The translations under genes were made by a program, and so were the position numbers. A stretch of DNA of 64,000 nucleotides, from NCBI GenBank assembly GCA_000004985.1, contig GG738854.1, one strand, 5' to 3'. How positions within the stretch are numbered: the stretch's first letter is position 1; every line of letters starts with the position of its first letter. A model generated the notes under the pieces. It did no database searches. It saw only the letters and a list, made by a program, of their open reading frames with translations, and had not been told where the DNA came from. The stretch is from Naegleria gruberi. Taxonomy: Eukaryota. Positions 6,581-30,806 of the stretch are shown in pieces.

Positions 6581-6648
6581 NNNNNNNNNNNNNNNNNNNN
6601 NNNNNNNNNNNNNNNNNNNNNNNNNNNNNNNNNNNNNNNNNNNNNNNN

Positions 6649-7128: not shown

Positions 7129-10100
7129 TATTGATACCATTGTGTTCACAATTGAAAATCTAGTCGATTGATATTAGTTTCATCAATTGGTAATATTAAT
7201 ATGGTCAATTAGGGTATCTCAAAGTCAATTTTGAAAAACTAAGAGTAGCTATATAAAATGTCTAATAAATCATAATTATATATCAAAACTGATATCAAAA
7301 TGCTTCAAATTACATATATAACATGATAGAATTGAAATAAATATCATATCTCATATTAAATATTGAGATAGTCAATTAAGGTACCTCAATATGGAAGTAC
7401 CCTAAGGATAATGAGATTCATTACCAAATTGATACAATATGTTATTAACATCATATAATGATGTTCCTATCAATTTCATATCATTTGGACATCATTCAAC
7501 ATTCATGTCATTCAACCATGTCAGCAACTACTCATGGCAATATGAAAAGTCAATATCAAGAGTTGCAACAAGATAGAGTATCATACCACTACTCTTATAA
7601 TTGATATTGATAACGTTTCTGAGTGATAGAAATCAATATCTATATAATTGGAATATCTGCCAAGCTACTGTCCTAATTGATCAAAGGTATCATTCTTACA
7701 TGTCAATAATGGTAAGAATCAATACCAATTCAATATTATCATGTTATAATCATCATATACTCTCNNNNNNNNNNNNNNNNNNNNNNNNNNNNNNNNNNNN
7801 NNNNNNNNNNNNNNNNNNNNNNNNNNNNNNNNNNNNNNNNNNNNNNNNNNNNNNNNNNNNNNNNNNNNNNNNNNNNNNNNNNNNNNNNNNNNNNNNNNNN
7901 NNNNNNNNNNNNNNNNNNNNNNNNNNNNNNNNNNNNNNNNNNNNNNNNNNNNNNNNNNNNNNNNNNNNNNNNNNNNNNNNNNNNNNNNNNNNNNNNNNNN
8001 NNNNNNNNNNNNNNNNNNNNNNNNNNNNNNNNNNNNNNNNNNNNNNNNNNNNNNNNNNNNNNNNNNNNNNNNNNNNNNNNNNNNNNNNNNNNNNNNNNNN
8101 NNNNNNNNNNNNNNNNNNNNNNNNNNNNNNNNNNNNNNNNNNNNNNNNNNNNNNNNNNNNNNNNNNNNNNNNNNNNNNNNNNNNNNNNNNNNNNNNNNNN
8201 NNNNNNNNNNNNNNNNNNNNNNNNNNNNNNNNNNNNNNNNNNNNNNNNNNNNNNNNNNNNNNNNNNNNNNNNNNNNNNNNNNNNNNNNNNNNNNNNNNNN
8301 NNNNNNNNNNNNNNNNNNNNNNNNNNNNNNNNNNNNNNNNNNNNNNNNNNNNNNNNNNNNNNNNNNNNNNNNNNNNNNNNNNNNNNNNNNNNNNNNNNNN
8401 NNNNNNNNNNNNNNNNNNNNNNNNNNNNNNNNNNNNNNNNNNNNNNNNNNNNNNNNNNNNNNNNNNNNNNNNNNNNNNNNNNNNNNNNNNNNNNNNNNNN
8501 NNNNNNNNNNNNNNNNNNNNNNNNNNNNNNNNNNNNNNNNNNNNNNNNNNNNNNNNNNNNNNNNNNNNNNNNNNNNNNNNNNNNNNNNNNNNNNNNNNNN
8601 NNNNNNNNNNNNNNNNNNNNNNNNNNNNNNNNNNNNNNNNNNNNNNNNNNNNNNNNNNNNNNNNNNNNNNNNNNNNNNNNNNNNNNNNNNNNNNNNNNNN
8701 NNNNNNNNNNNNNNNNNNNNNNNNNNNNNNNNNNNNNNNNNNNNNNNNNNNNNNNNNNNNNNNNNNNNNNNNNNNNNNNNNNNNNNNNNNNNNNNNNNNN
8801 NNNNNNNNNNNNNNNNNNNNNNNNNNNNNNNNNNNNNNNNNNNNNNNNNNNNNNNNNNNNNNNNNNNNNNNNNNNNNNNNNNNNNNNNNNNNNNNNNNNN
8901 NNNNNNNNNNNNNNNNNNNNNNNNNNNNNNNNNNNNNNNNNNNNNNNNNNNNNNNNNNNNNNNNNNNNNNNNNNNNNNNNNNNNNNNNNNNNNNNNNNNN
9001 NNNNNNNNNNNNNNNNNNNNNNNNNNNNNNNNNNNNNNNNNNNNNNNNNNNNNNNNNNNNNNNNNNNNNNNNNNNNNNNNNNNNNNNNNNNNNNNNNNNN
9101 NNNNNNNNNNNNNNNNNNNNNNNNNNNNNNNNNNNNNNNNNNNNNNNNNNNNNNNNNNNNNNNNNNNNNNNNNNNNNNNNNNNNNNNNNNNNNNNNNNNN
9201 NNNNNNNNNNNNNNNNNNNNNNNNNNNNNNNNNNNNNNNNNNNNNNNNNNNNNNNNNNNNNNNNNNNNNNNNNNNNNNNNNNNNNNNNNNNNNNNNNNNN
9301 NNNNNNNNNNNNNNNNNNNNNNNNNNNNNNNNNNNNNNNNNNNNNNNNNNNNNNNNNNNNNNNNNNNNNNNNNNNNNNNNNNNNNNNNNNNNNNNNNNNN
9401 NNNNNNNNNNNNNNNNNNNNNNNNNNNNNNNNNNNNNNNNNNNNNNNNNNNNNNNNNNNNNNNNNNNNNNNNNNNNNNNNNNNNNNNNNNNNNNNNNNNN
9501 NNNNNNNNNNNNNNNNNNNNNNNNNNNNNNNNNNNNNNNNNNNNNNNNNNNNNNNNNNNNNNNNNNNNNNNNNNNNNNNNNNNNNNNNNNNNNNNNNNNN
9601 NNNNNNNNNNNNNNNNNNNNNNNNNNNNNNNNNNNNNNNNNNNNNNNNNNNNNNNNNNNNNNNNNNNNNNNNNNNNNNNNNNNNNNNNNNNNNNNNNNNN
9701 NNNNNNNNNNNNNNNNNNNNNNNNNNNNNNNNNNNNNNNNNNNNNNNNNNNNNNNNNNNNNNNNNNNNNNNNNNNNNNNNNNNNNNNNNNNNNNNNNNNN
9801 NNNNNNNNNNNNNNNNNNNNNNNNNNNNNNNNNNNNNNNNNNNNNNNNNNNNNNNNNNNNNNNNNNNNNNNNNNNNNNNNNNNNNNNNNNNNNNNNNNNN
9901 NNNNNNNNNNNNNNNNNNNNNNNNNNNNNNNNNNNNNNNNNNNNNNNNNNNNNNNNNNNNNNNNNNNNNNNNNNNNNNNNNNNNNNNNNNNNNNNNNNNN
10001 NNNNNNNNNNNNNNNNNNNNNNNNNNNNNNNNNNNNNNNNNNNNNNNNNNNNNNNNNNNNNNNNNNNNNNNNNNNNNNNNNNNNNNNNNNNNNNNNNNNN

Positions 10101-11217
10101 NNNNNNNNNNNNNNNNNNNNNNNNNNNNNNNNNNNNNNNNNNNNNNNNNNNNNNNNNNNNNNNNNNNNNNNNNNNNNNNNNNNNNNNNNNNNNNNNNNNN
10201 NNNNNNNNNNNNNNNNNNNNNNNNNNNNNNNNNNNNNNNNNNNNNNNNNNNNNNNNNNNNNNNNNNNNNNNNNNNNNNNNNNNNNNNNNNNNNNNNNNNN
10301 NNNNNNNNNNNNNNNNNNNNNNNNNNNNNNNNNNNNNNNNNNNNNNNNNNNNNNNNNNNNNNNNNNNNNNNNNNNNNNNNNNNNNNNNNNNNNNNNNNNN
10401 NNNNNNNNNNNNNNNNNNNNNNNNNNNNNNNNNNNNNNNNNNNNNNNNNNNNNNNNNNNNNNNNNNNNNNNNNNNNNNNNNNNNNNNNNNNNNNNNNNNN
10501 NNNNNNNNNNNNNNNNNNNNNNNNNNNNNNNNNNNNNNNNNNNNNNNNNNNNNNNNNNNNNNNNNNNNNNNNNNNNNNNNNNNNNNNNNNNNNNNNNNNN
10601 NNNNNNNNNNNNNNNNNNNNNNNNNNNNNNNNNNNNNNNNNNNNNNNNNNNNNNNNNNNNNNNNNNNNNNNNNNNNNNNNNNNNNNNNNNNNNNNNNNNN
10701 NNNNNNNNNNNNNNNNNNNNNNNNNNNNNNNNNNNNNNNNNNNNNNNNNNNNNNNNNNNNNNNNNNNNNNNNNNNNNNNNNNNNNNNNNNNNNNNNNNNN
10801 NNNNNNNNNNNNNNNNNNNNNNNNNNNNNNNNNNNNNNNNNNNNNNNNNNNNNNNNNNNNNNNNNNNNNNNNNNNNNNNNNNNNNNNNNNNNNNNNNNNN
10901 NNNNNNNNNNNNNNNNNNNNNNNNNNNNNNNNNNNNNNNNNNNNNNNNNNNNNNNNNNNNNNNNNNNNNNNNNNNNNNNNNNNNNNNNNNNNNNNNNNNN
11001 NNNNNNNNNNNNNNNNNNNNNNNNNNNNNNNNNNNNNNNNNNNNNNNNNNNNNNNNNNNNNNNNNNNNNNNNNNNNNNNNNNNNNNNNNNNNNNNNNNNN
11101 NNNNNNNNNNNNNNNNNNNNNNNNNNNNNNNNNNNNNNNNNNNNNNNNNNNNNNNNNNNNNNNNNNNNNNNNNNNNNNNNNNNNNNNNNNNNNNNNNNNN
11201 NNNNNNNNNNNNNNNNN

Positions 11218-12010
11218 ATGGTCTTTGATTAAATTTAAAAATAGACTGCCGTTAATTACTGGAATATTAATATTCAAAGCTTGTTGATCAAGCTATTGAT
11301 TGAAATCAAACCGATTATTGAATATTGATCATTGAATTGGTGAATAATCACTCTTGATAATGCTAGATATTTCATATTGCATGCAAATCAACCTGATTCA
11401 ATCTACAAAGGTTGGTAGTTGCACCACTTCGTGGCGAAACTACCATTCCACGATGAATCAACAAAGAATCACTTCCATTCAACTCAATTTGACCGTTATA
11501 ATCAATAAATCAATGAAATGTTCCTTTATTAGCAATACCTGTTCAATCTAATGAGTATATTCACGTCCCAAACATTTGACTTCTCAAAGTCCATAATACA
11601 AAAGTTAGTTCTGACCTGACCTTTATAAATCTATCAATATAAGAAATGAAACCATCAAATTTACATCATTAATAGATTATAAGAAATATAATCAATGATA
11701 TAAATCTTCATTAAGTAATCTCTTAAATAACCCAAATAAATCAACTCTGAATCCTAACCAAACCCCCCAGTTTCCAGATCACAAAAGTCAAGATACTATA
11801 TATGGTCTTTGATTAAATTTAAAAATAGACTGCCGTTAATTACTGGAATATTAATTCAAAGCTTGTTGATCAAGGTATTGATTCAAATCAAACCGATTAT
11901 TGAATATTGATCATTGAATTGGTGAATAATCACTATCTTGATAATGTTACTTATTCATATTGCATGCAAATCAACCTGATTCAATCTACAAAGGTTGGTA
12001 GTTGCGAAAC
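11218..12010. repeat. Tandem repeat of about 585 bp (1.35 copies; second copy carries internal deletions)
   Basis: atggtctttgattaaatttaaaaatagactgccgttaattactggaatattaat...ggtgaataatcact...gcatgcaaatcaacctgattcaatctacaaaggttggtagttgc... begins both at 11218 and at 11803. Copy 1 contains the hairpin tggtagttgcaccacttcgtggcgaaactacca. The motif atctcttaaataacccaaataaatcaactctgaatcctaacca at 11720-11762 also occurs at 956-1000 and 13524-13568. Confidence 0.8.
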
Positions 12011-15991: not shown

Positions 15992-16206
15992 ATGACATTG
16001 AAAAAAGTATATGGAAGCTTTAATCAAACTAAGGATATCGAAAAAACACAACAGTATTGTTTTGAATGTCAAATTGAAGCAGTGGGAGATTATGAAAAGA
16101 TATCTGAAAGCGGGATTGCAGAAGACTGGGCCATCCTCTCATTTGAAAACTATATGGAGTATGGTTCTCCAAACTATTTAATACCATCCCCATCTCAGGT
16201 ATAAAG
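15992..16206 (+). other. Possible 5' gene fragment running into the N-gap (unresolved)
   Basis: The ORF MTLKKVYGSFNQTKDIEKTQQYCFECQIEAV...SPNYLIPSPSQV is open to the gap at 16207. It has no identifiable domain and lies in the unique sequence distal to duplication copy B. Confidence 0.2.
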
Positions 16207-17601
16207 NNNNNNNNNNNNNNNNNNNNNNNNNNNNNNNNNNNNNNNNNNNNNNNNNNNNNNNNNNNNNNNNNNNNNNNNNNNNNNNNNNNNNNNNNNNNNN
16301 NNNNNNNNNNNNNNNNNNNNNNNNNNNNNNNNNNNNNNNNNNNNNNNNNNNNNNNNNNNNNNNNNNNNNNNNNNNNNNNNNNNNNNNNNNNNNNNNNNNN
16401 NNNNNNNNNNNNNNNNNNNNNNNNNNNNNNNNNNNNNNNNNNNNNNNNNNNNNNNNNNNNNNNNNNNNNNNNNNNNNNNNNNNNNNNNNNNNNNNNNNNN
16501 NNNNNNNNNNNNNNNNNNNNNNNNNNNNNNNNNNNNNNNNNNNNNNNNNNNNNNNNNNNNNNNNNNNNNNNNNNNNNNNNNNNNNNNNNNNNNNNNNNNN
16601 NNNNNNNNNNNNNNNNNNNNNNNNNNNNNNNNNNNNNNNNNNNNNNNNNNNNNNNNNNNNNNNNNNNNNNNNNNNNNNNNNNNNNNNNNNNNNNNNNNNN
16701 NNNNNNNNNNNNNNNNNNNNNNNNNNNNNNNNNNNNNNNNNNNNNNNNNNNNNNNNNNNNNNNNNNNNNNNNNNNNNNNNNNNNNNNNNNNNNNNNNNNN
16801 NNNNNNNNNNNNNNNNNNNNNNNNNNNNNNNNNNNNNNNNNNNNNNNNNNNNNNNNNNNNNNNNNNNNNNNNNNNNNNNNNNNNNNNNNNNNNNNNNNNN
16901 NNNNNNNNNNNNNNNNNNNNNNNNNNNNNNNNNNNNNNNNNNNNNNNNNNNNNNNNNNNNNNNNNNNNNNNNNNNNNNNNNNNNNNNNNNNNNNNNNNNN
17001 NNNNNNNNNNNNNNNNNNNNNNNNNNNNNNNNNNNNNNNNNNNNNNNNNNNNNNNNNNNNNNNNNNNNNNNNNNNNNNNNNNNNNNNNNNNNNNNNNNNN
17101 NNNNNNNNNNNNNNNNNNNNNNNNNNNNNNNNNNNNNNNNNNNNNNNNNNNNNNNNNNNNNNNNNNNNNNNNNNNNNNNNNNNNNNNNNNNNNNNNNNNN
17201 NNNNNNNNNNNNNNNNNNNNNNNNNNNNNNNNNNNNNNNNNNNNNNNNNNNNNNNNNNNNNNNNNNNNNNNNNNNNNNNNNNNNNNNNNNNNNNNNNNNN
17301 NNNNNNNNNNNNNNNNNNNNNNNNNNNNNNNNNNNNNNNNNNNNNNNNNNNNNNNNNNNNNNNNNNNNNNNNNNNNNNNNNNNNNNNNNNNNNNNNNNNN
17401 NNNNNNNNNNNNNNNNNNNNNNNNNNNNNNNNNNNNNNNNNNNNNNNNNNNNNNNNNNNNNNNNNNNNNNNNNNNNNNNNNNNNNNNNNNNNNNNNNNNN
17501 NNNNNNNNNNNNNNNNNNNNNNNNNNNNNNNNNNNNNNNNNNNNNNNNNNNNNNNNNNNNNNNNNNNNNNNNNNNNNNNNNNNNNNNNNNNNNNNNNNNN
17601 N

Positions 17602-18074
17602 AACCCAAACCCAAACCCAAACCCAAGGGCAAACCCAAACCCAAACCCAAACCCAAAGCCAAACCCAAACCCAAACCCAAACCCAAACCCAAACCCAAAC
17701 CCAAACCCAAACCCAAACCCAAACCCAAACCCAAACCCAAACCCAAACCCAAACCCAAACCCAAACCCAAACCCAAACCCAAACCCAAACCCAAACCCAA
17801 ACCCAAACCCAAACCCAAACCCAAACCCAAACCCAACCCAAACCCAAACCCAAACCCAAACCCAAACCCAAACCCAAACCCAAACCCAAACCCAAACCCA
17901 AACCCAAACCCAAACCCAACCCAAACCCAAACCCAAACCCAAACCCAAACCCAAACCCAAACCCAAACCCAAACCCAAACCCAAACCCAAACCCAAACCC
18001 AAACCCAAACCCAAACCCAAACCCAAACCCAAACCCAAACCCAAACCCAACCCACCCAAACCCAACCCAAACCC
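17602..18074. repeat. Telomeric repeat tract (CCCAAA)n joined directly to coding sequence
   Basis: About 78 units of CCCAAA with sparse variants (cccaagggc, cccaaagcc, cccaaccca). It is preceded by the N-gap 16207-17601 and is followed immediately at 18075 by in-frame NHL-repeat coding sequence (t caa tta tat aat cct tat gga gtt gcc...). Confidence 0.9.
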
Positions 18075-21000
18075 TCAATTATATAATCCTTATGGAGTTG
18101 CCATCAGTTCAAGTGATGAAATTTATATTGCTGATACAAACAATCATAGAATTCGTAAAATCACAACATCTGGTATTATTTCAACAATTGCTGGAACTGG
18201 AACAGCAGGATATAATGGTGATGGTTCATCTGCAACAAGTGCTAAATTATATTTTCCTTATGGAGTTGCCATCAGTTCAAGTGATGAAATTTATATTGCT
18301 GATATGGATATGTTCAATAATAGAATTCGTAAAATCACAACATCTGGTATTATTTCAACAATTGCTGGCGGTATAGGCGATGGACTATCAGCAACTACAG
18401 CTTACATTAATGCCATTACGTTCGAATTTTCCTCAAGTGGTGAAATTTATATTGCTGATACAAACAATCATAGAATTCGTAAAATCACAACATCTGGTAT
18501 CATTTTAACAATTGCTGGAACTGGAACACAAGGATATAGTGGTGATGGTTCATCTGCAACAAGTGCTCAATTAAATTCTCCTTATGGAGTTGCCATCAGT
18601 TCAAGAGGTGAAATTTATATTGCTGATACAAACAATAACAGAATTCGTAAAATCACAACATCTGGCATTATTTCAACAATTGCTGGAACTGGAACATCAC
18701 GGCTATAGTGGTGATGGTTCATCTGCAACAAGTGCTCAATTATATAATCCTTATGGAGTTGCCATCAGTTCAAGTGATGAAATTTATGTTGCTGATTACA
18801 ATAATAACAGAATTCGTAAAATCACAACATCTGGCATTATTTCAACAATTGCTGGAACTGGAACATCCGGCTATAGTGGTGATGGTTCATCTGCAATAAG
18901 TGCTCAATTATATAATCCTTATGGAGTTGCCATCAGTTCAAGTGATGAAATTTATATTACTGATACAAACAATAACAGAATCAGAAAACTTAGTCCTTGG
19001 TGCACTGGAAATGCCATTCTTTTAGATGGATCTTGTGAGTATCCATGTTTTGGAACTACAAACAAAATTCCAGCTGTTGTATGCTCTGGAAAAGGTTCAT
19101 GTATTGGCTATAATCAATGCAATTGCACAGCTGATTACTTTGGTTACAAATGTGATGAATTTTATTGCTATGAGTTGTTGAGAAATCACTCTGGTGTTTG
19201 TTCATCCCAAGGTATTTGTACTTCTCCCAATGAGTGCTCTTGTTCATCCGGTTATTATGGGGAAAATTGCCAATACTTTTATTGCCACTCTATTCCGTTC
19301 AACTCTTCTACAGTATGTTCGTCAGTAGGAACTTGTATTGGATTGAATAATTGCTCGTGTAATCCAGGATATTCAGGGTCGTATTGCCAAGACTTTACTT
19401 GTTATGGTGTTAGTTCTAAAAACACTACCGTATGTTCTTCTCATGGCACGTGTACATCTCTAAATAATTGCTCTTGCGTTACTGGTTATTATGGAAATAA
19501 TTGCGAGAATTTTGAATGTTTCGATATTCTTTTCACTAATTCTACAGTTTGTTCTAGCAGAGGAAAATGTTTCTCTCCTAACAATTGTACATGTGATTCT
19601 GGATATTATGGATCTAATTGTGAAATGTATGATTGTTATGGATTGTCCAAAAACAGTTCTAATGTATGTTCAGGGCATGGAAGTTGTACTTCATTCAATA
19701 ATTGTACATGTAGAGATGGTTACTTTGATTCTAAATGTGAGTCATTTAATTGTGCCGGAGAGAAATTCACTGGTCAAAGTCTTTGTCAAAATAATGGAAC
19801 TTGTTCTGGCCCTGGAAATTGTGTTTGTCCATATAAGTTTGGAGGAGCAAGATGTGAATATTTTAAATGTTTTTCAGTGACAGCCAACGAACCAAAAGTA
19901 TGCGGAGGACATGGTACATGTCTCAACTATAACAATTGTTCTTGCTCAGAAAAGTGGTTTGGAGAAGATTGTTCAGTTACTAATTGTTTTAATATAACAT
20001 CAAATTCTAGTTCTGTATGTGGTGCTAGAGGAAATTGTAGTGATTATGACAGGTGTACTTGTAATAATGGTTATATTGGTAGAGAATGTGAACATATTGT
20101 TTGTTATGACAGGATTGAAAGTGATAGAATGGTTTGCTCTGGAAATGGTAAATGTATATCACCAAATAATTGTACATGTGAAAGTGGTTTTGTTGGAAAT
20201 GAATGTCAATATCATGAAATTTATTTGAACACATCATCTGCAATGATATTTTCTTTCCATGATAGTCTAATGAAAATGTTGCCAAATGGCAGTGAAATAT
20301 TTTCATGTAATGATATTTTTGAAGAATCTGAACTAATGAAATTTGGCGAAAATTCTATTTTATGTCAATGGAGAAAGAAATCAATGCAAATTTATCTTGG
20401 TTTTGATTACACAATTCAACATTACTCGGTTATTCAAACCAAATTTAATTTTTCAATGATTGTGAACAGTTTAACCAATAATGATGTTTCTTCTTCCAGT
20501 TGTACATTTGGATACTCATTAACAGAAGCATCACCAATGTTAGATTTAGTAATACGTTTGAATTGTGATGATACTTTACATGGATTCACGAAAATGACAA
20601 GTAGATGGATATGTAGTCAATGTAGTGGCGTTATTTCATCATTGTTAAACAAATATTCCAATAGAACATTTATTCATATTCCAATTTCATATACAAACAG
20701 TTTAAACCCTATTCAAGGATATAAGATTATTAATTTACAAGCTCTTTATTCATCTGGAGTGACTAGTGAAAAATCAATAAGTAAGGAAGTGAAGATACAA
20801 ACCTATACAAAATCATTACCCCCTAGTTATTACTGGTTAAGTGATAATTTTGACGGAAAGGCATATTCCTGTATTGGTCATAATTGTATTTTAGAAACTT
20901 CATTGAATAGTTTAAATTCTTCAATTTCATATTCATTTTCTGGCTTTTTCAGTTTATTGAATACTGATTTATATTCCAAACAAATGGTTAGAATGATTAA

Positions 21001-24000
21001 TGAATATTCAGGAGGAGTTTTAGACAGTGAATTTAATTCTAATATGCAAGTTTTTGGAGTTCAATTGAAAACATATGTTTTCTTACCTTTTACTATTGAC
21101 TCTTTTAAATATTCTACATTTAAAAATTTGGATTTCGTAATGACAGGTGTTAATAGAACCTATTCTATCAACTCTGATGAAACAATACGTATTGAGCTAA
21201 TGATTGATGATCCTTATATTTCCAAATATACTTTAAGTGATTATATGGAGTTTTCTTGGCAATGTTTCAAAGTTTCACCTTTCAACAAATCTCAACATTT
21301 AAGTGATAACTTGTGCTCTTCTACTAAATCTTATCTTGAACAAATAGATATTAAGCAAATAATGTCTTCAAAAGAAGGTTCTTATTATATTACTGCTTTA
21401 ATATCCTCCAATAAGTATTTTATAACAACAGTTTATCATTATGAAGGTTATATTGAGTTCTTAGATATTTCAAAGCTCTCTCCAAAAATAACTACAGATT
21501 ATATACCAGCAATTACACCTTCCCATAAGAATATTTATATGAGAAATGTAGTGAAATCTTCAACAATGGTTTCATTTATATGGAAACTCAAACAAGGATA
21601 TTTAAATAATATTGATAATAATATTGAAGAATTTCTTCAAGATAATACAATTTACAGAACTATAATGGAAAATGATATTGAAATAATTTTAAAAATTGAT
21701 AACAAACATTTAATTGAAGGAGAGGTATACGAATTTGAATTGTCAACTACCAATTCAAACGGAATTACCACTATATCCATTTCAACTAGAATTGATTATA
21801 GTCCAAGATTATCCTGTGATGTAGAAAATTTGAAACATGATGTTAATTTTACAAGTTTTGAAACTTTGATAGGTATTAACTGCTTGAAATTACCATATGA
21901 AAGTATTTCAAGTTTTGTAATGGAATTTCATTCAAACAACGAAAGATTAGGTGTAATATCCAATACACCAAAGAAATCTTTGATAACAAAGCTACCGTAC
22001 CCATATTCTAAAGATGGTAGAATTGCTCTTGTCGTAAAACTTCAAAACTTATATGGTTCTATTGGAATTTTTAGAAAAAATATTAAGATTGAATTACCTA
22101 GTTATTTGTTAAATGACAATTCTATCCTATCAAGATTTAATTATATTTCAGATCAATTCCAAATTCTTAAAAATTCTAAACCACTCAAGATGGAAATTTC
22201 CAGTGAAATGAATAGTTTACTCACCCTCTTAATTCAAAATGAAACTCTTTCAACATTATCAGACAGCATTTTGAAAGAATTTAATCCAATGAAAATAAGT
22301 TCATTTAATTCAATGCTTGGTGATATGTTGAAAATAACAAAGAGTTTATGGGATATTACTTACAAAGTTGATGAAAGAGTTATTCAATTAACTTTACCAA
22401 TAATTTACAAGATTTCTAACATTTTAAAAACAACAATTAGTGATACTTCATCATTATCAACATTTAGTATTGAATTAGAAGCTTTTTTGGAATTAATTTA
22501 TTCAGGAATGAAGAAAGCACTTAATTATTATCCAACTTTCATTTATAATGATTTACTTGATAATTATCATTTAGAAGAAATTAAATCATTGCAAAATATT
22601 CTTGCAAATATCCATCAAAATAATTTAGATGAACAATATAAGATCCATAAATTTGCTTTAGAATATTTCAAGTTAACAGGGAATAATGGCGACAATTCAA
22701 GTTTTGTCGAAGATTTAGAATATTCATCTTTATTGAATGAGAAATCAATTTCACTCACAGTTTCCAACTTTAAAGTTGATATCAAATTGCCTAGTGACTT
22801 TTCTAGTCAAATTTCTCTAACTTCCAAATCTAAACTATTCTATTCTATTAGATCATTTAATTCTCCAACTAGACAGGAAACAACACTCCTGCAAAACAAA
22901 CCAATTGTAGATCTATCTCTGTTAGATACATCATACAATACAATCACAGTGAAAAATATTAATCCACCAATAATATTCAAATTTCAAGGCTTAATTACAA
23001 ACAACAAAACTGGTATTAACACTACTTGTGTTTTTTATGATACTACCTTAAAGATATGGTCAACTAGTGGACTTGAGACCTTAACAACAATTAACAAAAG
23101 AACAGATGACTATATTTACTTTGATATGGAATGTAGATCTAATCATTTATCAGTGTTTTCCATCCAAGAAATTAATTATAACTCTCCAATTGTGCAAACA
23201 TCTGGTTTATCATCTACAAGATCCGTTTCTAGTAATGATTCTATATTAATTATCATCTTATCTACAGTGTTGCCTATTACTTTTTTGATATTTGCTTTCA
23301 GTATTATTCTAATTGTCTTTATTATACTTTTATTTAGAAGCAAGCAAAAGAAAGCAAATGAACTTGCGAAAACTAATGCTAATAATATTGAACTTGAAGG
23401 TTTTTCGAGTACTGATTTCCCGACAGAAGGAAGTATGTTTATCCAACCTCTCATGAGCATTTCTTCAAATGGAACTACTAGCGAAGCTTTCAATCCTCTC
23501 TCTAGATATTCCAACTTGATAAGAATTGGTCAAGGAGCTTTCGGATCAGTCTTTAAGGCCTTTGATAGTAAAACAAATTCGGTGAAAGCTATCAAAGTCA
23601 TTAAATATTCTTCCATGGAAGAATTGAATAATTTTATGAAAGAAGGAACTCAATTAATGAATGTCAATCATCCCTATATTTTACGGGTGAATGAATTCTT
23701 TGTTAGTAAGGACCAATTACTTTGTATTGATATGGACTTTTATGAGCTGGGAGATTTAGTTAAGTTAACAAATATTGATTTTGATTGTTCTGAAAAATTG
23801 ATCAAACAAATAATTTATCAAATGTGTCAAGCTCTTGATTATATTCACTGTACTATGAAAATAATTCATAGAGATATCAAACCATCCAATGTTTTTGTGA
23901 AAAGCTTGGAAAAAGATAATATCCACATAATTGTGGCAGATTTTGGGTTAGCTAAATCTAATATTGGATCGACAAATAATTCCTATGCTGGTACTCCTAT

Positions 24001-24348
24001 ATTTATGGTAAGTTTTTTGTACATTTAACATTTTATTCATTTGAAAAGTCCCCTGAGCTTGGTTTGGGTGGAAAGTACTATTACAACACTGATATTTATA
24101 GTTTAGGAGTTACAATCTATCAAATCATGACAAAAGATACCTTTACATCCATAAGTCAATTATACCTAGGTAAAGACCAAACAGATGTAACCAAATTATT
24201 GTATAAAAAGTTACAAGAAAGTGGTCAATATTCTTCAAAACTTGTAGAATTGGTAGTATTAATGTTAACCAAAGATAACTTGATTAGACCACAAGCTCAA
24301 GATATTTTGGAGGATTATTATTTTGATGATTTGAAAAAGAAACAATAA
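18075..24348 (+). CDS. Receptor-type Ser/Thr protein kinase: NHL repeats + about 13 tenascin-type EGF repeats + transmembrane segment + kinase. N-terminally truncated by the telomere; 2 exons
   Basis: Exon 1 is 18076-24007 and exon 2 is 24049-24348. The intron at 24008-24048 starts gtaagt, ends aaaag, and is 41 bp. Splicing joins GTPIFM to [21 protein letters not shown], which is the APE region of the kinase. Kinase motifs present are [21 protein letters not shown] and DFGLAK. The EGF repeats follow CxGxSxxxxVCSxxGxCxxxNxCxCxxGYxGxxCExF. The transmembrane segment is [32 protein letters not shown] 1-bp insertion at about 18697 (acatcacggctatag vs acatccggctatag in the other copies) shifts the frame between NHL repeats. 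This may be a sequencing error or a true disruption. Confidence 0.8.
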
Positions 24349-24455: not shown

Positions 24456-27026
24456 TTAATTTTTAATCAAAGAAAAGAAACGGGCATTTGGGGTTTGTTG
24501 AATTGCTTTCGTTACGATTTCTTGATCTTGCTTAAATGAATTCGCAGCAAAGCCAAGAGCCAATCCATTTTGTTGAACAGCTTCCATTACAACTCGCCTA
24601 TCTTTAGTTAATGATTTATCAGTGTACTCTAGTGCCAATCCATTTTGGCTCACTGCCATTATTGCTATAGCACTATCTTTCCGTAATGACCTATCTGCAT
24701 ATTCCAAAGCTAAACCATTTTGTTGAACTGCTGTTGTAACAATTTCTCTATCTTTCTTCATTTTTTCATTGGCATATTTGAGAGCCAAACCATTTTGTTG
24801 AACTGCCTTCATTACAATTTCCTTTTCGTTCTTAATTGACTTATGCATACATTCGAGTAATAAACCGTCCCGTTGAACAGTTTCAGAGGCAAATTCTCTA
24901 TCCTTTCTCAATGATTCACTCACAAAATTAATTGCCAATCTATTTTGTTGAATGGCTCTCATTACAATTTCTTTGTCTCGTCTCAGCATTTCATCTGCAT
25001 ACTTTAATGCTAAACCATTTTGTTGAATTGATTCCAATACAATTTCTCTATCTTTTCTTAATTCCTTGTCTGCAGATTCTAATGTTAGCCCATTTTGTTT
25101 AACTGCTTTCAGTACAATCTCTCTTTTTTTGACAAATGAACCATCAACAATCTGTAAAACATGTTCATTTTGTGCAACAGCATTCAACACGATTTCCTTA
25201 TCTTTTCTCAATGATTCATCTGCATATTTGATTGCAAATCTATTTTGTTTAACAGCTTCTGTGACAATTTCTATATCTTTAGTAAGTGATTTGTCTACGT
25301 ATTCTAGAGCTAACCCGTTTTGTTTCACTGATTTCAATACAATTTCTCTATCTTTCCTGAAAGAGATATCAATAGAATCAAGTAGTAATCCTTTGTGTTG
25401 TACTGCTGCCAAAACAAATTCTCTATCTTTCCTAAATGATTCATCTGCGTACGTGAATACTATTCCATCATGTTGAATTGCACTCATTACAAATTCCCTA
25501 TCTTTTCTCAATGATTCGTTGGCATATTGAAGTGCCTCTCTATTGTTTTTGAATGCAGTTAAAACTATTTCCCTGTCATTTAAGAAAGTGGTATATTTCA
25601 ATAACAACCCATTTCGTCCAACAATATCATTAATAAACTCTCTATCTCTCATTAATGATTCATCGAAGTAATTAAAGGCAGTTTCATTTCTTTCCAGTAC
25701 ATGAATGGCAAATGATTTATCTGTTCTCACTGATTCATCAATTGTTAGTAAATTTCTAACATCTTTGACCACTATTTCAACCAAGAAATTTCGGTCTTGT
25801 TTCAATGACTTGTGTGCACTCTGCAAAATATTATTTTGTAAAATGAAATCTCTATTCTTATGAGGGAGTGTTGTTAAATCTTTCATAAGGTATTCCAAAC
25901 TAGAGAAAGCTGACAACTCCTTTTCATTTTTCCAAATCAAAGACTTATTATTGAAATATATTATTCCATTAAAGCCAATATTATAAAATCCAATTGCTCT
26001 TTGTTGAATATCACTTGAAATTAATTGTTCTATCATTTCAAGAATATCTGTTGTAAACTGATCACTATCGTGATTATTGAATAAAGCTCTGAAAGTTTTA
26101 CCTAATGAAAACAAGTCAGTGTTAAATGTTGGTTTGAAATTGGCTTTGAAAATTCGTTTGCCTTTTTCATTGACTTCTAATACCTCTGGAGGAGCATAGC
26201 TTGTTGTTCCACCTCGCATTTGGGAGGCAACAGTGTCATTCAATAAGGTGAGTCCAAAATCTCCAATGGCAACCTCGACTTCATTCGAATTCAAATCAAG
26301 TTTCTTCACAAGAATATTTGCAGGCTTGATATCTGAATGAACCATACCTCTTTGTTTCATAAATAGTAATACTTCACAACATTGGAACATCATTTTGAAA
26401 ATTGCAATTGATGGAAGTTTGATTTTCTTCTTGATTAAATCTTGTAAACTTCCCATTTCAATAAATTCCATTTCAATACAACATGTCTGTCTAATCAAGA
26501 TTGAATTGTAAACCTTCACAACATTTGGATGATCCAATTTGGCTCCACTGACTGCTTCATTTGGTCCCATTGTTGAAATGATTGGTATCACTTTGATGGC
26601 TTTTACATTTTGACCATTAGAATTCCTTTTAATCACTTTTAAAACAGTTCCAAATCCCCCAGCTCCTATTTTCTCAGCATGCCATGTTTTTACTCCATCA
26701 TCAACTTGTTCATTATTCGATCCAATAATTTCTGGCAATCCATTCAGAAATTTGTTGAAATATCCCAGTACAGAATTGGTTATTCCCTGGCTGAATTTAG
26801 CATTATCATGATCATCATCAAAATCTTCGAGTAATTTAAGAAAGTATCGGAGATGAGGTTTAGTGTCGTGTTCGAATTTAATATCCGAAATTATGGATTT
26901 GTTTTGATCATGTGGATTAATGTTAGGTGAAGTATTTGCCTTTGCTTGTTTTATTGTTGGTTCGCATTCTTCTCCACCACCATTGAGGGATGTGGTGTGA
27001 TCATCTTGCTCATACTTTCTTTTCAT
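24456..27026 (-). CDS. Protein kinase with a long C-terminal array of DUF4116-like repeats of about 36 aa
   Basis: Single 856-aa ORF. N-terminal kinase motifs are GAGGFGTVLKV, VKAIKVI, HSDIKPANILV, DFGL and SYAPPE. It is followed by about 15 repeats of the form (K/R)DREIVLxAVxQNGLALEYAxxSLxKD. It converges tail-to-tail with the preceding gene, with 107 bp between the stops. Confidence 0.8.
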   Translation of the reverse strand: MKRKYEQDDHTTSLNGGGEECEPTIKQAKANTSPNINPHDQNKSIISDIKFEHDTKPHLRYFLKLLEDFDDDHDNAKFSQGITNSVLGYFNKFLNGLPEIIGSNNEQVDDGVKTWHAEKIGAGGFGTVLKVIKRNSNGQNVKAIKVIPIISTMGPNEAVSGAKLDHPNVVKVYNSILIRQTCCIEMEFIEMGSLQDLIKKKIKLPSIAIFKMMFQCCEVLLFMKQRGMVHSDIKPANILVKKLDLNSNEVEVAIGDFGLTLLNDTVASQMRGGTTSYAPPEVLEVNEKGKRIFKANFKPTFNTDLFSLGKTFRALFNNHDSDQFTTDILEMIEQLISSDIQQRAIGFYNIGFNGIIYFNNKSLIWKNEKELSAFSSLEYLMKDLTTLPHKNRDFILQNNILQSAHKSLKQDRNFLVEIVVKDVRNLLTIDESVRTDKSFAIHVLERNETAFNYFDESLMRDREFINDIVGRNGLLLKYTTFLNDREIVLTAFKNNREALQYANESLRKDREFVMSAIQHDGIVFTYADESFRKDREFVLAAVQHKGLLLDSIDISFRKDREIVLKSVKQNGLALEYVDKSLTKDIEIVTEAVKQNRFAIKYADESLRKDKEIVLNAVAQNEHVLQIVDGSFVKKREIVLKAVKQNGLTLESADKELRKDREIVLESIQQNGLALKYADEMLRRDKEIVMRAIQQNRLAINFVSESLRKDREFASETVQRDGLLLECMHKSIKNEKEIVMKAVQQNGLALKYANEKMKKDREIVTTAVQQNGLALEYADRSLRKDSAIAIMAVSQNGLALEYTDKSLTKDRRVVMEAVQQNGLALGFAANSFKQDQEIVTKAIQQTPNARFFSLIKN

Positions 27027-27380: not shown

Positions 27381-28574
27381 TTACAAATTATACACTTCAT
27401 AATCTTCAACCTGGAAATTTTTTGTGCCTGCCAGGTATGCATTTGCTGTTGTGGAACTAACTGACATTGTTGCATCACAATAGGAAGCACAAAGATTTGA
27501 AGTACTAAGAGAGTTAGAGTTGCAATTATTTGAAATAAATAAGTCATGTCCTCCTCCAAATGTTGGTCCCAGACCTGATACTTGATATGTTGCATATTCA
27601 CCATTTGTTTTCCCACTCTTATAGAAATCTGAATATTGTTGAGGTAATTTGGCAAATCTTTCCACTCCAGTAGAAGAAACTAAACTAAATAGAAATGCTG
27701 ACTTGTCTGATACATAGCCAGAATTTTGAACATTCCATGAAACACTGGTATAACCTCCAAATATTGCTCCCGACTGTGCCTTGACAATTACAACAGTTGC
27801 ACCCTTATTATCACATTTCGAGTGGAATTTATCTCCTGCAAAGCCATCTCTGGATGCCTTGAAAAGCAATTTGGTAAAAGAGTTTGGCATGTTCAATATT
27901 TCATTGGAAAATCTTGTCATTTGAGCAGAGGTTAATATTGCTGTTTGGTTTACGCAATTTGTTCCAGTCCATCCACTTTTACAAGTAGAACAAGTTGTAC
28001 CATTCCAATTTCCAGAGCATACTGAACAGTTTCCAGGTGATGTACAGTTCAAACATTTGGAATCACACACTGGAATTGAACATGAAGGTCCAGTCCAATT
28101 ACCTGAACAAGAAACACATTTTCCTGGTGATGAGCAATTCAAACATTTTGAATCACAGATAGGAATGTTACAATCAGGTCCATCATAATTACTACAAGCA
28201 CTATTAACAATTACAATTTCTTGATTGATAAGATTAAGAGCTTGAGTAATTTTCTTCAATTGAGCACTTCTTATCGTTAAGATTGATTCCGTATTGTTAG
28301 AATTACTTAAAACTGCAATGGCAACTTGTAATTTTAAAGCTGTGGATTGTAATCTAGCAGCTTGCTCATTCAAGTCACCCAACCATTCTCTCAACGTTCC
28401 ATTACCACCACTACTTGATGAAGACCCTACAACAAAGGTAACATGCACACAAGTAAATATCAGCAGCAGCGAACAAACTACCAGCAAACATGCACTAAGG
28501 ATTGCTTGCTTATTTGGCACAATTGGTCGTCTTGGCATTATTTTGTTTGTTGTGTGTGTGATATTATTTAGCAT
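27381..28574 (-). CDS. Type II membrane protein with coiled coil, two Cys-rich EGF-like repeats and a C-terminal TLDc domain
   Basis: 397-aa ORF. The N-terminal signal-anchor is ILSACLLVVCSLLLIFTCVHVTFVV. The EGF-like repeats are NIPICDSKCLNCSSPGKCVSCSGNWTGPSC and SIPVCDSKCLNCTSPGNCSVCSGNWNGTTC. The C-terminal 170 aa match the TLDc consensus: LLFKASRDGF..FHSKCDNKGATVVIVKAQSGAIFGGYTSVSW...SAFLFSL...GPTFGGGHDLFI. Confidence 0.7.
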   Translation of the reverse strand: MLNNITHTTNKIMPRRPIVPNKQAILSACLLVVCSLLLIFTCVHVTFVVGSSSSSGGNGTLREWLGDLNEQAARLQSTALKLQVAIAVLSNSNNTESILTIRSAQLKKITQALNLINQEIVIVNSACSNYDGPDCNIPICDSKCLNCSSPGKCVSCSGNWTGPSCSIPVCDSKCLNCTSPGNCSVCSGNWNGTTCSTCKSGWTGTNCVNQTAILTSAQMTRFSNEILNMPNSFTKLLFKASRDGFAGDKFHSKCDNKGATVVIVKAQSGAIFGGYTSVSWNVQNSGYVSDKSAFLFSLVSSTGVERFAKLPQQYSDFYKSGKTNGEYATYQVSGLGPTFGGGHDLFISNNCNSNSLSTSNLCASYCDATMSVSSTTANAYLAGTKNFQVEDYEVYNL

Positions 28575-29690: not shown

Positions 29691-30806
29691 ATGATGTTTG
29701 GTAACAATGACAGTGTCGAATCTTCTTTAGTATCATCATCACTTGGAATATCATCTAATTATGTTGTTAGTAACAGTAGTAATAATTCAACGTCCGAGGT
29801 TCTGTCATCTGCCAACAATCATGAAACATTTCTAAAGCTTGATATTGAATCACTCTTGACAGATCTTCACCAACAAGATAAACAACAGCAAATACATCAA
29901 AAACAACTTGAAATTGTTGCATCCTCTTCACACAATTCCAAAAATGGTAGCATGAACCAATTATCACCACAAGAACAATTTGTTGAAAATAGTTTGCTTG
30001 CATGTGGAGGCAGTATTGGCAGTAGAAGAAATGATGAACCATTCGAATACATTAATGATGACAGTAAAATCTCAGAGGATTCGGATAGTAAGATGCAACA
30101 TCAAAAAATTGGCGGATTGGAAAATTTTCATGAGAGCAAGAGGAAGGAAGTTGGATTGGATTGTTTTTCACCTACTGTAAGGATTGTTTCTAATAGTTTG
30201 AGTAGTGCAACTGTTTGTCAGCCTCCAATAATACGAAACGTTTCGAATACTTCACAACAACAGCAGCAAAAAATGTTTACCATTGTGCAGTACGACCCAC
30301 AACAACAGTCGAACAATTCAATTTCCTCTCCATTAACATATCACCACATTTCGCCCAGCAGCAGCAACCAGTTTCCCATTCTTTCGAATACAGTTTCTAC
30401 AGAAAGAAAATCAAAGAAATCTAAAGACAATTTTGGAAAGTCAAAACGAGAAAGAACAACCCTGCCTCCCTCGCTAGAATCTCAGCTCTTCCAAACAAAT
30501 AGCAACCCATCAACTTCAACCTTTCAATGGTCAGAAAATGAATTTCAAGAATTCACCTCAGGGCAACATGAAACTCAAAAGCGACAAAGAAAAGAAAGGG
30601 TTTATAAATTCTATGATTCAGGCCCGACTTCATTCAATTCCAATAGTGAGGATCCTCAATCGGCAACAAGTTTAATTTCAAATAATTCAATATTCGATTC
30701 AAATTCACCGAATTCTCCACCAATGAAAAAGAAGAAAAGGAAAAAGAAACAGTCCTCTACTGCTGCTGCATCTTCTTCCACGACTCAAAATCCTACCATT
30801 GAATAA
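29691..30806 (+). CDS. Ser/Asn/Gln-rich low-complexity protein with a basic C-terminal KKKKRKKK (NLS-like) tail; unknown function
   Basis: 371-aa ORF with an ATG start at 29691. Codon usage matches its neighbours. No recognisable domain. Confidence 0.5.
   Translation: MMFGNNDSVESSLVSSSLGISSNYVVSNSSNNSTSEVLSSANNHETFLKLDIESLLTDLHQQDKQQQIHQKQLEIVASSSHNSKNGSMNQLSPQEQFVENSLLACGGSIGSRRNDEPFEYINDDSKISEDSDSKMQHQKIGGLENFHESKRKEVGLDCFSPTVRIVSNSLSSATVCQPPIIRNVSNTSQQQQQKMFTIVQYDPQQQSNNSISSPLTYHHISPSSSNQFPILSNTVSTERKSKKSKDNFGKSKRERTTLPPSLESQLFQTNSNPSTSTFQWSENEFQEFTSGQHETQKRQRKERVYKFYDSGPTSFNSNSEDPQSATSLISNNSIFDSNSPNSPPMKKKKRKKKQSSTAAASSSTTQNPTIE

What the first reader, a model, noticed from the sequence alone, without database searches (positions are those of the whole stretch)
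27381..28574. Type II membrane protein combining EGF-like repeats with a TLDc domain
The TLDc domain (as in the OXR1/NCOA7/TLDC family, linked to oxidative-stress resistance) appears here at the extracellular C-terminus of a signal-anchor protein. It sits behind a coiled coil and two Cys-rich EGF-like modules. This topology is not the usual cytosolic context for TLDc. It may represent a secreted or ectodomain TLDc lineage.
Basis: partly seen in the sequence, partly recalled or inferred. Interest (0 to 1): 0.5.

Follow-up and report, generated by a model that had tools for sequence, protein, structure and literature searches.

The report
Naegleria secreted/surface protein with TLDc head
This Naegleria gruberi gene encodes a protein that is exported or anchored at the cell surface and carries, outside the cytosol, a TLDc domain, a fold so far studied only as a cytosolic regulator of the proton pump V-ATPase. 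It belongs to a small gene family in which the same stalk carries different lectin-type heads.

Summary
The minus-strand ORF 27381..28574 (397 aa) is the annotated N. gruberi 'predicted protein' NAEGRDRAFT_64363. It has four parts:
- one N-terminal hydrophobic segment;
- two heptad-patterned helices;
- a 16-Cys region made of two 71%-identical EGF-like repeats plus a half repeat;
- a full-length C-terminal TLDc domain (Pfam 97 bits; AF2 model matches only solved TLDc structures).

An extracytoplasmic TLDc is well supported. There is only one hydrophobic segment, its N-flank is positively charged, and a disulfide-rich module follows it. Seven N. gruberi paralogues share the stalk. Three more of them carry TLDc, two carry a fibrinogen-C domain and one a LamG/ConA-like domain.

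Two corrections are needed. 'Type II anchor' is unproven, because the paralogues have short, cleavable-looking signal peptides. And this is not a single ectodomain lineage. The Naegleria TLDc domains cluster with each other, while cnidarian and environmental EGF+TLDc or TSP1+TLDc proteins fall in at least three other places in the tree.

My best reading is a TLDc head acting as a binding module on an oligomerising stalk, independent of V-ATPase. This is a new variant of a known kind: it is present in databases, but I found no description in the literature. Interest is moderate.

The parts
27381..28574 (-). Complete intronless ORF, 397 aa plus stop. The annotated CDS (NAEGRDRAFT_64363, 385 aa) starts at Met13, i.e. 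27381..28538.
28506..28574 (-). N-terminal polar, positively charged n-region (residues 1-23; net +4, or +3 counted from Met13). Predicted cytosolic if the segment is not cleaved.
28428..28505 (-). The only hydrophobic segment (residues 24-49, AILSACLLVVCSLLLIFTCVHVTFVV). It is either a signal anchor or a long signal peptide with a possible cleavage site at VVG|SSS.
28395..28427 (-). Ser/Gly-rich linker (residues 50-60), low pLDDT.
28197..28394 (-). Helical stalk (residues 61-126). It consists of two heptad-patterned helices joined by an N-rich loop. This family-specific module is found only in N. gruberi proteins and a few environmental fragments.
27954..28196 (-). Cys-rich region (residues 127-207, 16 Cys). 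It contains a conserved C..DGPDC knot, two 31-residue EGF-like CXXC repeats (71% identical) and a C-x2-C-x8-C half repeat.
27387..27947 (-). TLDc domain (residues 210-396), IFI44-like / BTB-TLDc subfamily. It runs to within one residue of the C-terminus, and there is no C-terminal hydrophobic tail or GPI-type signal.

Best explanation
NAEGRDRAFT_64363 is a secretory-pathway protein of Naegleria gruberi. Its N-terminal signal or anchor segment places the whole remainder outside the cytosol: helical stalk, disulfide-bonded EGF-like spacer and C-terminal TLDc domain. That much is shown by sequence anatomy and by comparison with paralogues.

It belongs to a small, apparently N. gruberi-restricted family built on one common stalk (signal, two amphipathic helices, C..DGPDC knot, EGF-like repeats). 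The C-terminal globular head on that stalk has been exchanged between TLDc, fibrinogen-related and LamG/ConA-like domains (shown).

From here on the account is inferred. The helices oligomerise the protein. The EGF-like repeats act as a rigid spacer. The TLDc head occupies the position of the ligand-binding (lectin-type) module, so it binds an extracellular or lumenal ligand multivalently. Candidates are prey or particle surfaces, substratum, or cyst or other cell-surface material of a bacterivorous amoeba. This is analogous to ficolin-, angiopoietin- or tenascin-type proteins.

The V1 sector of V-ATPase is cytosolic. The only experimentally established TLDc activity, binding V1, therefore cannot be the mechanism here.
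For: Topology:
- There is a single hydrophobic segment at residues 24-49, and the N-flank is net +3/+4 against 0 for the C-flank.
- A 16-Cys EGF-like region follows it.
- There is no second hydrophobic segment.

TLDc identity: Pfam 97.3 bits; weak sequence matches to the solved TLDc of mEAK-7 with the single sequence (best E=4.5e-05) and stronger profile matches to NCOA7, mEAK-7, OXR2 and Skywalker (down to E=1.5e-10); the fold matches only TLDc structures.

Family and head swapping:
- An exhaustive phmmer search with the 86-aa stalk against 1.84 billion representatives found just 7 proteins. All are N. gruberi.
- Their heads are TLDc (query, P0002, P0004, P0023), Fibrinogen_C (P0066 at 27.1 bits and P0122 at 27.5 bits, cut-off 22) and Laminin_G_3 (P0123, 81.7 bits).
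- The exchange point lies directly after the last EGF Cys.
- Paralogues have classic short signal peptides.

Stalk helices: pLDDT 84-93, with heptad a/d hydrophobic occupancy of 1.0 and 0.78.

Other lineages: exported TLDc architectures occur independently elsewhere. Montipora P0114 has a signal peptide, EGF repeats and TLDc. Nematostella P0085 has TM, TSP1 x3 and TLDc x2. Stylophora P0048 and environmental P0049, P0053 and P0095 also combine EGF with TLDc.

V-ATPase partners of TLDc domains are in V1 (PDB 7u8o, 7une, 7uzg, 7fde, 9nn1; PMC8608904).
Against: - No experimental localisation, expression or ligand data exist. Literature searches found nothing on this protein or on exported TLDc domains.
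- Oligomerisation was not tested.
- N-glycosylation sequons are not enriched over composition (9 observed against 7.7 +/- 2.4 in shuffles).
- Cys content of the TLDc domain does not differ between exported and BTB-linked (cytosolic) relatives. The domain therefore shows no obvious adaptation to an oxidising environment.
- The closest TLDc relative, P0008 (51% identity), has no signal sequence in its annotated model.
- TLDc has no known ligand-binding activity other than V-ATPase. The 'recognition head' role rests only on positional analogy with the fibrinogen and LamG paralogues.
- EGF assignment is marginal by Pfam, and that region has low pLDDT (49-68).
Confidence: 0.5

Rival explanations
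1. The ectodomain is as described, but the protein is a soluble secreted one. The N-terminal segment is a cleaved signal peptide (cleavage near VVG|SSS), not a type II anchor. Any attachment to the cell would then be indirect, through the stalk or the head.
For: All six stalk or TLDc paralogues with an N-terminal hydrophobic segment have 13-21-residue h-regions, short n-regions and (-3,-1) sites: VSA|S, IYA|A, VLC|A, VSA|V. The query has a compatible site immediately after its h-region, followed by a poly-Ser linker aligned with the paralogues' post-cleavage Ser/Thr tracts. There is no C-terminal anchor.
Against: The query's uninterrupted hydrophobic run is 20-26 residues, with an 11-23-residue n-region carrying 3-4 positive charges. 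That resembles a signal anchor more than a typical signal peptide. No dedicated predictor (SignalP, DeepTMHMM) was available.
Confidence: 0.45
2. The protein resides in the lumen of an endomembrane compartment (phagosome, lysosome, contractile-vacuole system or cyst-wall vesicles). It acts there rather than at the cell surface, for example on ingested bacteria.
For: The same topology evidence applies. Nothing in the sequence distinguishes the surface from a lumenal destination. Naegleria is phagotrophic (general knowledge).
Against: No sorting motif was identified, the cytosolic n-region is short, and there are no data.
Confidence: 0.25
3. The TLDc head is an enzyme or a redox or metal-binding module rather than a passive binding domain. 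It would use the polar residues that are nearly invariant in this subfamily whether the protein is cytosolic or exported.
For: D243, H251, C254, D255, H343, D344 and E393 are conserved in 66-83 of 86 aligned relatives across BTB-linked, EGF-linked and signal-peptide-linked proteins. In the profile alignment NCOA7 shows no H or C opposite H251 and C254, so these appear to be subfamily-specific. The 'c' in TLDc reflects an original, unproven prediction of catalysis (general knowledge).
Against: No catalytic activity has ever been shown for any TLDc domain (reviews PMC5614904 and PMC8608904 describe only stress-protection and V-ATPase-binding roles). Part of the conserved set is probably structural: the residues equivalent to G273, G340-342, L381 and E393 are buried in the OXR2 structure.
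Confidence: 0.15
4. The TLDc domain is cytosolic after all (N-out/C-in orientation) and regulates V-ATPase like OXR1, NCOA7 and mEAK7. Alternatively, the ORF is an artefactual fusion or a pseudogene.
For: The TLDc fold and five of the six pan-family conserved residues implicated in NCOA7-V-ATPase binding are retained: G244, G273, G340-342, L381 and E393. S817 corresponds to A246.
Against: - The positive charge lies on the N-terminal side of the hydrophobic segment.
- A 16-Cys EGF-like region sits between the membrane segment and TLDc.
- The same stalk carries fibrinogen-C and LamG domains in paralogues. These are classically extracellular domains (general knowledge).
- The ORF is continuous, and the same architecture recurs in four paralogues at 32-52% identity.
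- GC content matches the surroundings.
Confidence: 0.04

Closest known systems
TLDc domain proteins OXR1 / NCOA7 / TLDC2 / TBC1D24 (Skywalker) / mEAK-7 (TLDC1) / yeast Oxr1p, Rtc5p
   Same: The fold is the same (Foldseek probability 1.00, target TM-score 0.62-0.83) and so is the Pfam family. The pan-family Gly, Leu and Glu residues are retained.
   Different: Those proteins are cytosolic and bind the V1 sector of V-ATPase (PDB entries; PMC8608904). They combine TLDc with LysM, GRAM, TBC or EF-hand-like modules. The query shares only 16-20% identity with them and carries the subfamily signature FHxKCD / GGGHD. It sits behind a signal or anchor sequence and EGF-like repeats, where V1 is out of reach.
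IFI44-like / BTB(KCTD)-TLDc and BACK-TLDc proteins of protists and invertebrates
   Same: These are the closest TLDc sequences (35-47% identity over the domain) and share the same near-invariant residues. N. lovaniensis BTB-TLDc P0041 is the nearest neighbour outside the N. gruberi cluster.
   Different: They have cytosolic architectures (BTB_2, BTB/BACK, RING). They have no signal sequence, no EGF and no stalk.
Cnidarian and environmental EGF+TLDc and TSP1+TLDc proteins (Stylophora LOC111345977, Montipora P0114, Nematostella LOC5500053, P0049/P0053/P0095)
   Same: A TLDc domain is placed C-terminal to classic extracellular modules. P0114 has a signal peptide, and P0085 has a type II-like TM segment.
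   Different: They have no helical stalk, use different EGF types and often carry tandem TLDc domains. Their TLDc domains do not group with the Naegleria ones in the tree, which points to independent origins. They are uncharacterised database entries.
Ficolins / tachylectin-5 / angiopoietins / tenascins (oligomerising N-terminal region + spacer + C-terminal fibrinogen-related head)
   Same: The overall design is the same: secretion signal, oligomerising helical or heptad region, an optional EGF-like spacer (tenascin) and a C-terminal globular head. The paralogues P0066 and P0122 really do carry a Fibrinogen_C head on the query's stalk.
   Different: There is no sequence homology of the stalk to these families and no collagen region. 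The query's head is TLDc, which is not known as a lectin. Oligomerisation and ligand binding are untested. This is an analogy of design, not membership.

Membership tests
TLDc domain family (Pfam PF07534 / SMART TLDc) | Match to the family HMM above the curated gathering score, covering the whole domain | tested here: met
   97.3 bits against a cut-off of 24.5, E=1.3e-27, model positions 4-168 of 170
TLDc domain family (Pfam PF07534 / SMART TLDc) | TLDc three-dimensional fold | tested here: met
   AF2 pLDDT is mostly >90 over residues 210-397. The top 16 Foldseek PDB hits are all TLDc domains, E down to 4.9e-09, TMt up to 0.83.
TLDc domain family (Pfam PF07534 / SMART TLDc) | Pan-family conserved residues (mouse NCOA7 G815, S817, G845, G896, L926, E938) | tested here: met
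   G244, G273, G340-342, L381 and E393 are retained; the S817 equivalent is A246. The mapping goes through the profile-to-NCOA7 alignment, using the residue list of PMC8608904. It was read by eye from the alignment.
V-ATPase-regulating TLDc proteins (OXR1/NCOA7/TLDC2/mEAK7 functional class) | Cytosolic location giving access to the V1 sector | tested here: not met
   N-terminal signal or anchor with a positive N-flank, a 16-Cys EGF-like region, and paralogues with fibrinogen and LamG heads. This is sequence inference, not experiment.
V-ATPase-regulating TLDc proteins (OXR1/NCOA7/TLDC2/mEAK7 functional class) | Physical binding to V-ATPase subunits | not testable with these tools
   Needs pull-down or cryo-EM.
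OXR1/NCOA7 orthologous group | LysM/GRAM + TLDc architecture and close TLDc sequence similarity | tested here: not met
   No LysM or GRAM hit. Identity to NCOA7 and OXR2 structures is 16-17%. The closest relatives are BTB-TLDc / IFI44-like proteins.
IFI44-like / BTB-TLDc subfamily of TLDc domains | Subfamily signature: near-invariant D-G...F-H-x-x-C-D ... F-G-G ... W ... G-P-x-F-G-G-G-H-D ... E-V | tested here: met
   All are present in the query: D243, G244, F250, H251, C254, D255, F272-G274, W280, G336, P337, F339-G342, H343, D344, E393 and V394.
EGF-like domains | Six-Cys module recognised by an EGF-type HMM | tested here: inconclusive
   On the isolated segment, EGF_Teneurin scores 24.8 bits against a cut-off of 24.3. 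EGF_TEN scores 22.2 against a cut-off of 65, and EGF_2 is not significant. On the whole protein only the sub-threshold EGF_TEN hit appears. Cys spacing is C-x3-C-x2-C-x5-C-x2-C-x8-C, i.e. CXXC instead of the canonical C-x-C. pLDDT is low there.
Type II (signal-anchor) membrane proteins | Single N-terminal hydrophobic segment with N-in orientation (positive-inside) | tested here: met
   One segment at residues 24-49; N-flank +3/+4, C-flank 0.
Type II (signal-anchor) membrane proteins | The segment is not cleaved by signal peptidase | tested here: inconclusive
   An h-region of 20-26 residues favours an anchor. A VVG|SSS site and cleavable-looking signal peptides in all paralogues favour cleavage. 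No SignalP-type tool was available.
N. gruberi 'stalk + swappable head' family (defined here) | Shared module R-x-W/Y-L...L...E...Q-L-x-K...E-I...C-x3-x-G-x-D-C after a signal sequence | tested here: met
   phmmer E values run from 1.8e-46 to 3.3e-05 for 7 N. gruberi proteins. There are 11 invariant columns in the 8-sequence alignment.

The most novel reading that the evidence does not exclude
The TLDc fold is, in its most widespread (IFI44-like) subfamily, a general ligand-recognition or effector module. It works equally well inside and outside the cell. In Naegleria it serves as the head of an oligomeric, ficolin- or tenascin-like surface or secreted receptor family, and its heads (TLDc, fibrinogen-related, LamG) are interchangeable cassettes for recognising prey or the environment. 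V-ATPase binding would then be a derived speciality of the OXR1/NCOA7 branch rather than the ancestral function of the domain.
Probability: 0.3. Interest if true: 0.6.

Novelty: new variant of a known kind. Interest (0 to 1): 0.4.

Why it matters
Every TLDc protein studied so far (OXR1, NCOA7, TLDC2, TBC1D24, mEAK-7, yeast Oxr1p and Rtc5p) is cytosolic, and structural work explains them as V-ATPase V1 binders. A well-folded TLDc domain that retains all subfamily-invariant residues yet is exported behind EGF-like repeats cannot work that way.

The same stalk carries fibrinogen-related and LamG heads in sister genes. That gives a concrete, testable hint that TLDc can act as an extracellular binding module. 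It also offers a small natural 'head-swap' family in a tractable amoeba for testing the idea.

The significance is limited in three ways. This is a domain-architecture inference on an uncharacterised, apparently species-restricted gene family. Similar exported TLDc architectures already sit unremarked in cnidarian genome annotations. No function can yet be assigned.

Tried and rejected
- **N-glycosylation sequons as evidence of topology:** 9 observed against 7.7 +/- 2.4 in composition shuffles, so uninformative.
- **Extra or even Cys counts in exported versus cytosolic TLDc domains:** no difference.
- **TLDc paralogues within the window:** none. There was only weak Cys-rich similarity to the EGF receptor-kinase ORF at about 19.1-20.1 kb.
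- **Word-indexed homology searches with the stalk+EGF segment and with a stalk profile:** these returned only fragments (P0022, P0121, P0131) and did not even recover the known paralogues, so I do not read their low counts as absence. The exhaustive phmmer search is the one I rely on.
- **The look-up of encoding contigs for P0001 and P0002:** not on record, so the genomic context of the paralogues could not be examined.
- **Foldseek against afdb50:** library unavailable.
- **Sub-significant Foldseek hits of the model to fibrinogen-like domains:** E 0.1-1, rmsd about 10 Å. I treat them as noise.
- **Literature searches:** TLDc with secreted/EGF, signal peptide, extracellular, Naegleria and coral, plus the accession numbers. 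These found nothing on exported TLDc domains. One search was mis-specified and uninformative.
- **C-in topology and gene-fusion artefact:** both rejected; see the rival explanations.
Full report
**What is there.** The window is AT-rich eukaryotic DNA (GC about 0.30-0.39 away from the assembly gaps; the gaps themselves are listed). The finding's coordinates coincide exactly with an uninterrupted minus-strand ORF, 27381..28574, 397 aa. Its product is 100% identical to a Naegleria gruberi 'predicted protein' of 385 aa: XP_002680281.1, NAEGRDRAFT_64363, UniProt D2V6A3, on a 665-kb scaffold. The annotated start is Met13 of the ORF. So the organism is N. gruberi and the gene is already in public databases, without a functional name.

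**Checking each element of the observation.**
- *TLDc.* Pfam PF07534 matches residues 210-396 over essentially the whole model (positions 4-168 of 170), at 97.3 bits against a gathering score of 24.5. Sequence searches of the PDB hit the TLDc domains of mEAK-7 and, with a family profile, NCOA7, OXR2 and Skywalker. An AlphaFold2 model built from an 86-sequence alignment has pLDDT mostly above 90 in this region. Its 16 significant Foldseek matches in the PDB are all TLDc domains, with target TM-scores up to 0.83.
- *Signal or anchor.* Residues 24-49 are the only hydrophobic segment in the protein. The N-flank is net +3/+4 and the C-flank is neutral.
- *Coiled coil.* The model gives two long helices, 61-90 and 96-129, at pLDDT 84-93. 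Hydrophobic residues occupy 100% and 78% of a/d heptad positions, against about a third of other positions.
- *EGF-like.* Residues 127-207 hold 16 Cys. They are arranged as a C-x7-C knot, two 31-residue repeats that are 22/31 identical (spacing C-x3-C-x2-C-x5-C-x2-C-x8-C), and a C-x2-C-x8-C half repeat ending in the EGF-typical CxxGWxGxxC. Pfam support is marginal but consistent. EGF_Teneurin scores 24.8 bits against a cut-off of 24.3 on the isolated segment, and all other weak hits are EGF types. 'EGF-like CXXC repeats' is a fair description; strict membership is inconclusive.

**Topology.** Several facts place the TLDc domain outside the cytosol:
- the single N-terminal hydrophobic segment has the positive charge on its N-side;
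- a disulfide-rich module follows it;
- there is no further membrane segment and no C-terminal anchor signal.

The paralogues make this much stronger (see the next section).

Whether the protein stays anchored (type II) or is released is open. The query's h-region (20-26 residues) and long charged n-region look like an anchor. But a (-3,-1)-compatible site, VVG|SSS, follows directly. All paralogues also have 13-18-residue h-regions with typical cleavage sites. I could not run a dedicated predictor. Sequon frequency and Cys content of the TLDc domain gave no additional information.

**The family.** An exhaustive phmmer search with the 86-residue stalk (residues 55-140) against 1.84 billion cluster representatives found only seven proteins, all from N. 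gruberi. A few short environmental fragments turned up in other searches. The seven share a signal sequence, the motif R-x-W/Y-L..L..E....L, a second helix Q-L-x-K...E-I, and the knot C-x-x-x-G-x-D-C, with 11 invariant columns. Most then carry EGF-like repeats; P0023 has a poly-Thr linker instead.

The C-terminal heads differ:
- TLDc in the query, P0002 (its annotated C-terminus looks mis-modelled), P0004 and P0023;
- Fibrinogen_C in P0066 and P0122 (27.1 and 27.5 bits, cut-off 22);
- Laminin_G_3 / ConA-like in P0123 (81.7 bits).

The switch point lies immediately after the last EGF cysteine. Fibrinogen-related and LamG/ConA-like domains are classic extracellular ligand or carbohydrate-binding heads (established knowledge). 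Their presence on the same stalk confirms the extracytoplasmic topology. It also suggests what position the TLDc domain occupies functionally. P0052 is a further N. gruberi signal-peptide+TLDc protein without the stalk. P0008, the closest TLDc relative (51% identity), has no signal sequence in its annotated model.

**Which TLDc.** The domain is not of the OXR1/NCOA7 type, with only 16-20% identity to solved structures. Its nearest relatives are the very numerous BTB(KCTD)-, BTB/BACK- and RING-linked TLDc proteins of protists, fungi and invertebrates, some of which NCBI names 'IFI44-like'. Across 86 aligned relatives D243, G244, F250, H251, C254, D255, G273/274, W280, G336, P337, F339-G342, H343, D344, E393 and V394 are nearly invariant, and the query has all of them.

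Six residues are conserved across all TLDc proteins and are needed for NCOA7-V-ATPase binding: G815, S817, G845, G896, L926 and E938 (PMC8608904). The query keeps five of them (G244, G273, G340-342, L381, E393). According to that paper four of these five equivalents (G273, G340-342, L381, E393) are buried structural positions, while the G244 equivalent is surface-exposed. The H/C/D/HD set is subfamily-specific and could mark a functional site. I could not test its geometry.

**Is it one ectodomain lineage?** No. Exported architectures also occur elsewhere:
- Montipora: signal peptide, EGF repeats, TLDc;
- Stylophora: EGF_3 with two TLDc domains;
- Nematostella: N-terminal TM segment, three TSP1 repeats, two TLDc domains;
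- several environmental EGF+TLDc proteins.

In a quick neighbour-joining tree of the domain, without support values, the N. gruberi domains form one cluster beside a Naegleria BTB-TLDc. The other EGF-linked domains fall in three separate places among BTB-linked ones. The simplest reading is repeated recruitment of this domain into secreted proteins by shuffling.

**Mechanism.** Shown: this is an exported or surface TLDc protein on a stalk shared with fibrinogen and LamG paralogues.

Inferred:
- the amphipathic helices oligomerise;
- the EGF-like repeats act as a spacer;
- the TLDc head binds an extracellular or lumenal ligand multivalently, by analogy of design with ficolins, angiopoietins and tenascins.

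Because V1 of the V-ATPase is cytosolic, the only established TLDc mechanism is topologically excluded. Rivals are a soluble rather than anchored form (about even odds), a lumenal endomembrane site of action, and an enzymatic or redox role for the conserved polar set. A cytosolic TLDc or an artefactual gene model is essentially excluded.

**Novelty and literature.** Full-text searches combined TLDc with secreted/EGF, signal peptide, extracellular/domain architecture, Naegleria, coral and IFI44/invertebrate, and also searched for the accession numbers. They found no description of exported TLDc domains or of this protein. Reviews treat the family as cytosolic stress- and V-ATPase-related (PMC5614904, PMC8608904). 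The sequences and their Pfam annotations are public, however.

I rate it a new variant of a known kind. The TLDc domain is ordinary in itself. What is new is its extracytoplasmic setting and its place in a head-swapping family that has not been described before. Interest is moderate (0.4). It would mildly surprise a TLDc specialist and it suggests clear experiments. It remains an architecture-level inference on an uncharacterised, apparently species-restricted family.

Noticed in passing
window 24456..27026 (-): The immediate downstream neighbour is an 856-aa protein with a protein kinase domain followed by 10 DUF4116 repeats (438.8 bits in total). This is an unusual kinase + DUF4116 architecture.
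   Followed up: no
window 18584..24028 (+): A 1814-aa ORF with NHL repeats, a long array of teneurin/EGF_2-type EGF repeats and a C-terminal protein kinase domain. It looks like a receptor kinase with a teneurin-like ectodomain. It gives the only weak in-window similarity to the query's Cys-rich region.
   Followed up: partly
window 52931..63403 (+): A giant 3490-aa ORF made of Big_9 (19 stretches) and cadherin-like (Cadherin_4/5/3) repeats plus a VWA domain. These are 'bacterial-type' Ig/cadherin repeats in a eukaryotic genome, presumably a surface adhesin.
   Followed up: no
window 6581-6648, 7765-11217, 16207-17601: Runs of N (assembly gaps, 4916 N in total). The long 'ORFs' that the ORF listing reports across them (e.g. 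7601..11287, 16029..18065) are artefacts.
   Followed up: yes
P0008 (NAEGRDRAFT_66518, not in window): This is the closest TLDc relative of the query (51% identity). It has no N-terminal hydrophobic segment in its annotated model, and a Lys/Glu-rich coiled coil replaces the EGF repeats. Yet its N-terminus still aligns with the start of the stalk. Either it is a cytosolic derivative of the exported family, or a 5' exon was missed.
   Followed up: partly
P0002 (NAEGRDRAFT_66521, not in window): This is the closest full paralogue (52% identity). Its TLDc match stops at model position 101 of 170 and the annotated C-terminus is hydrophobic nonsense. That suggests a frameshift, a missed intron or a pseudogene in the public model.
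   Followed up: no
query residues 243-344 (window ~27543..27848, -) and alignment A2: The IFI44-like TLDc subfamily has a near-invariant polar set (D243, H251, C254, D255, H343, D344, E393) that is conserved regardless of cytosolic or exported context. In the profile alignment NCOA7 shows no H or C opposite H251 and C254. It may be a functional site, and I have seen no comment on it.
   Followed up: partly
window 29691..30806 (+): The upstream neighbour is a 371-aa Ser/Asn/Gln-rich low-complexity ORF with a basic C-terminal tail and no Pfam match.
   Followed up: no
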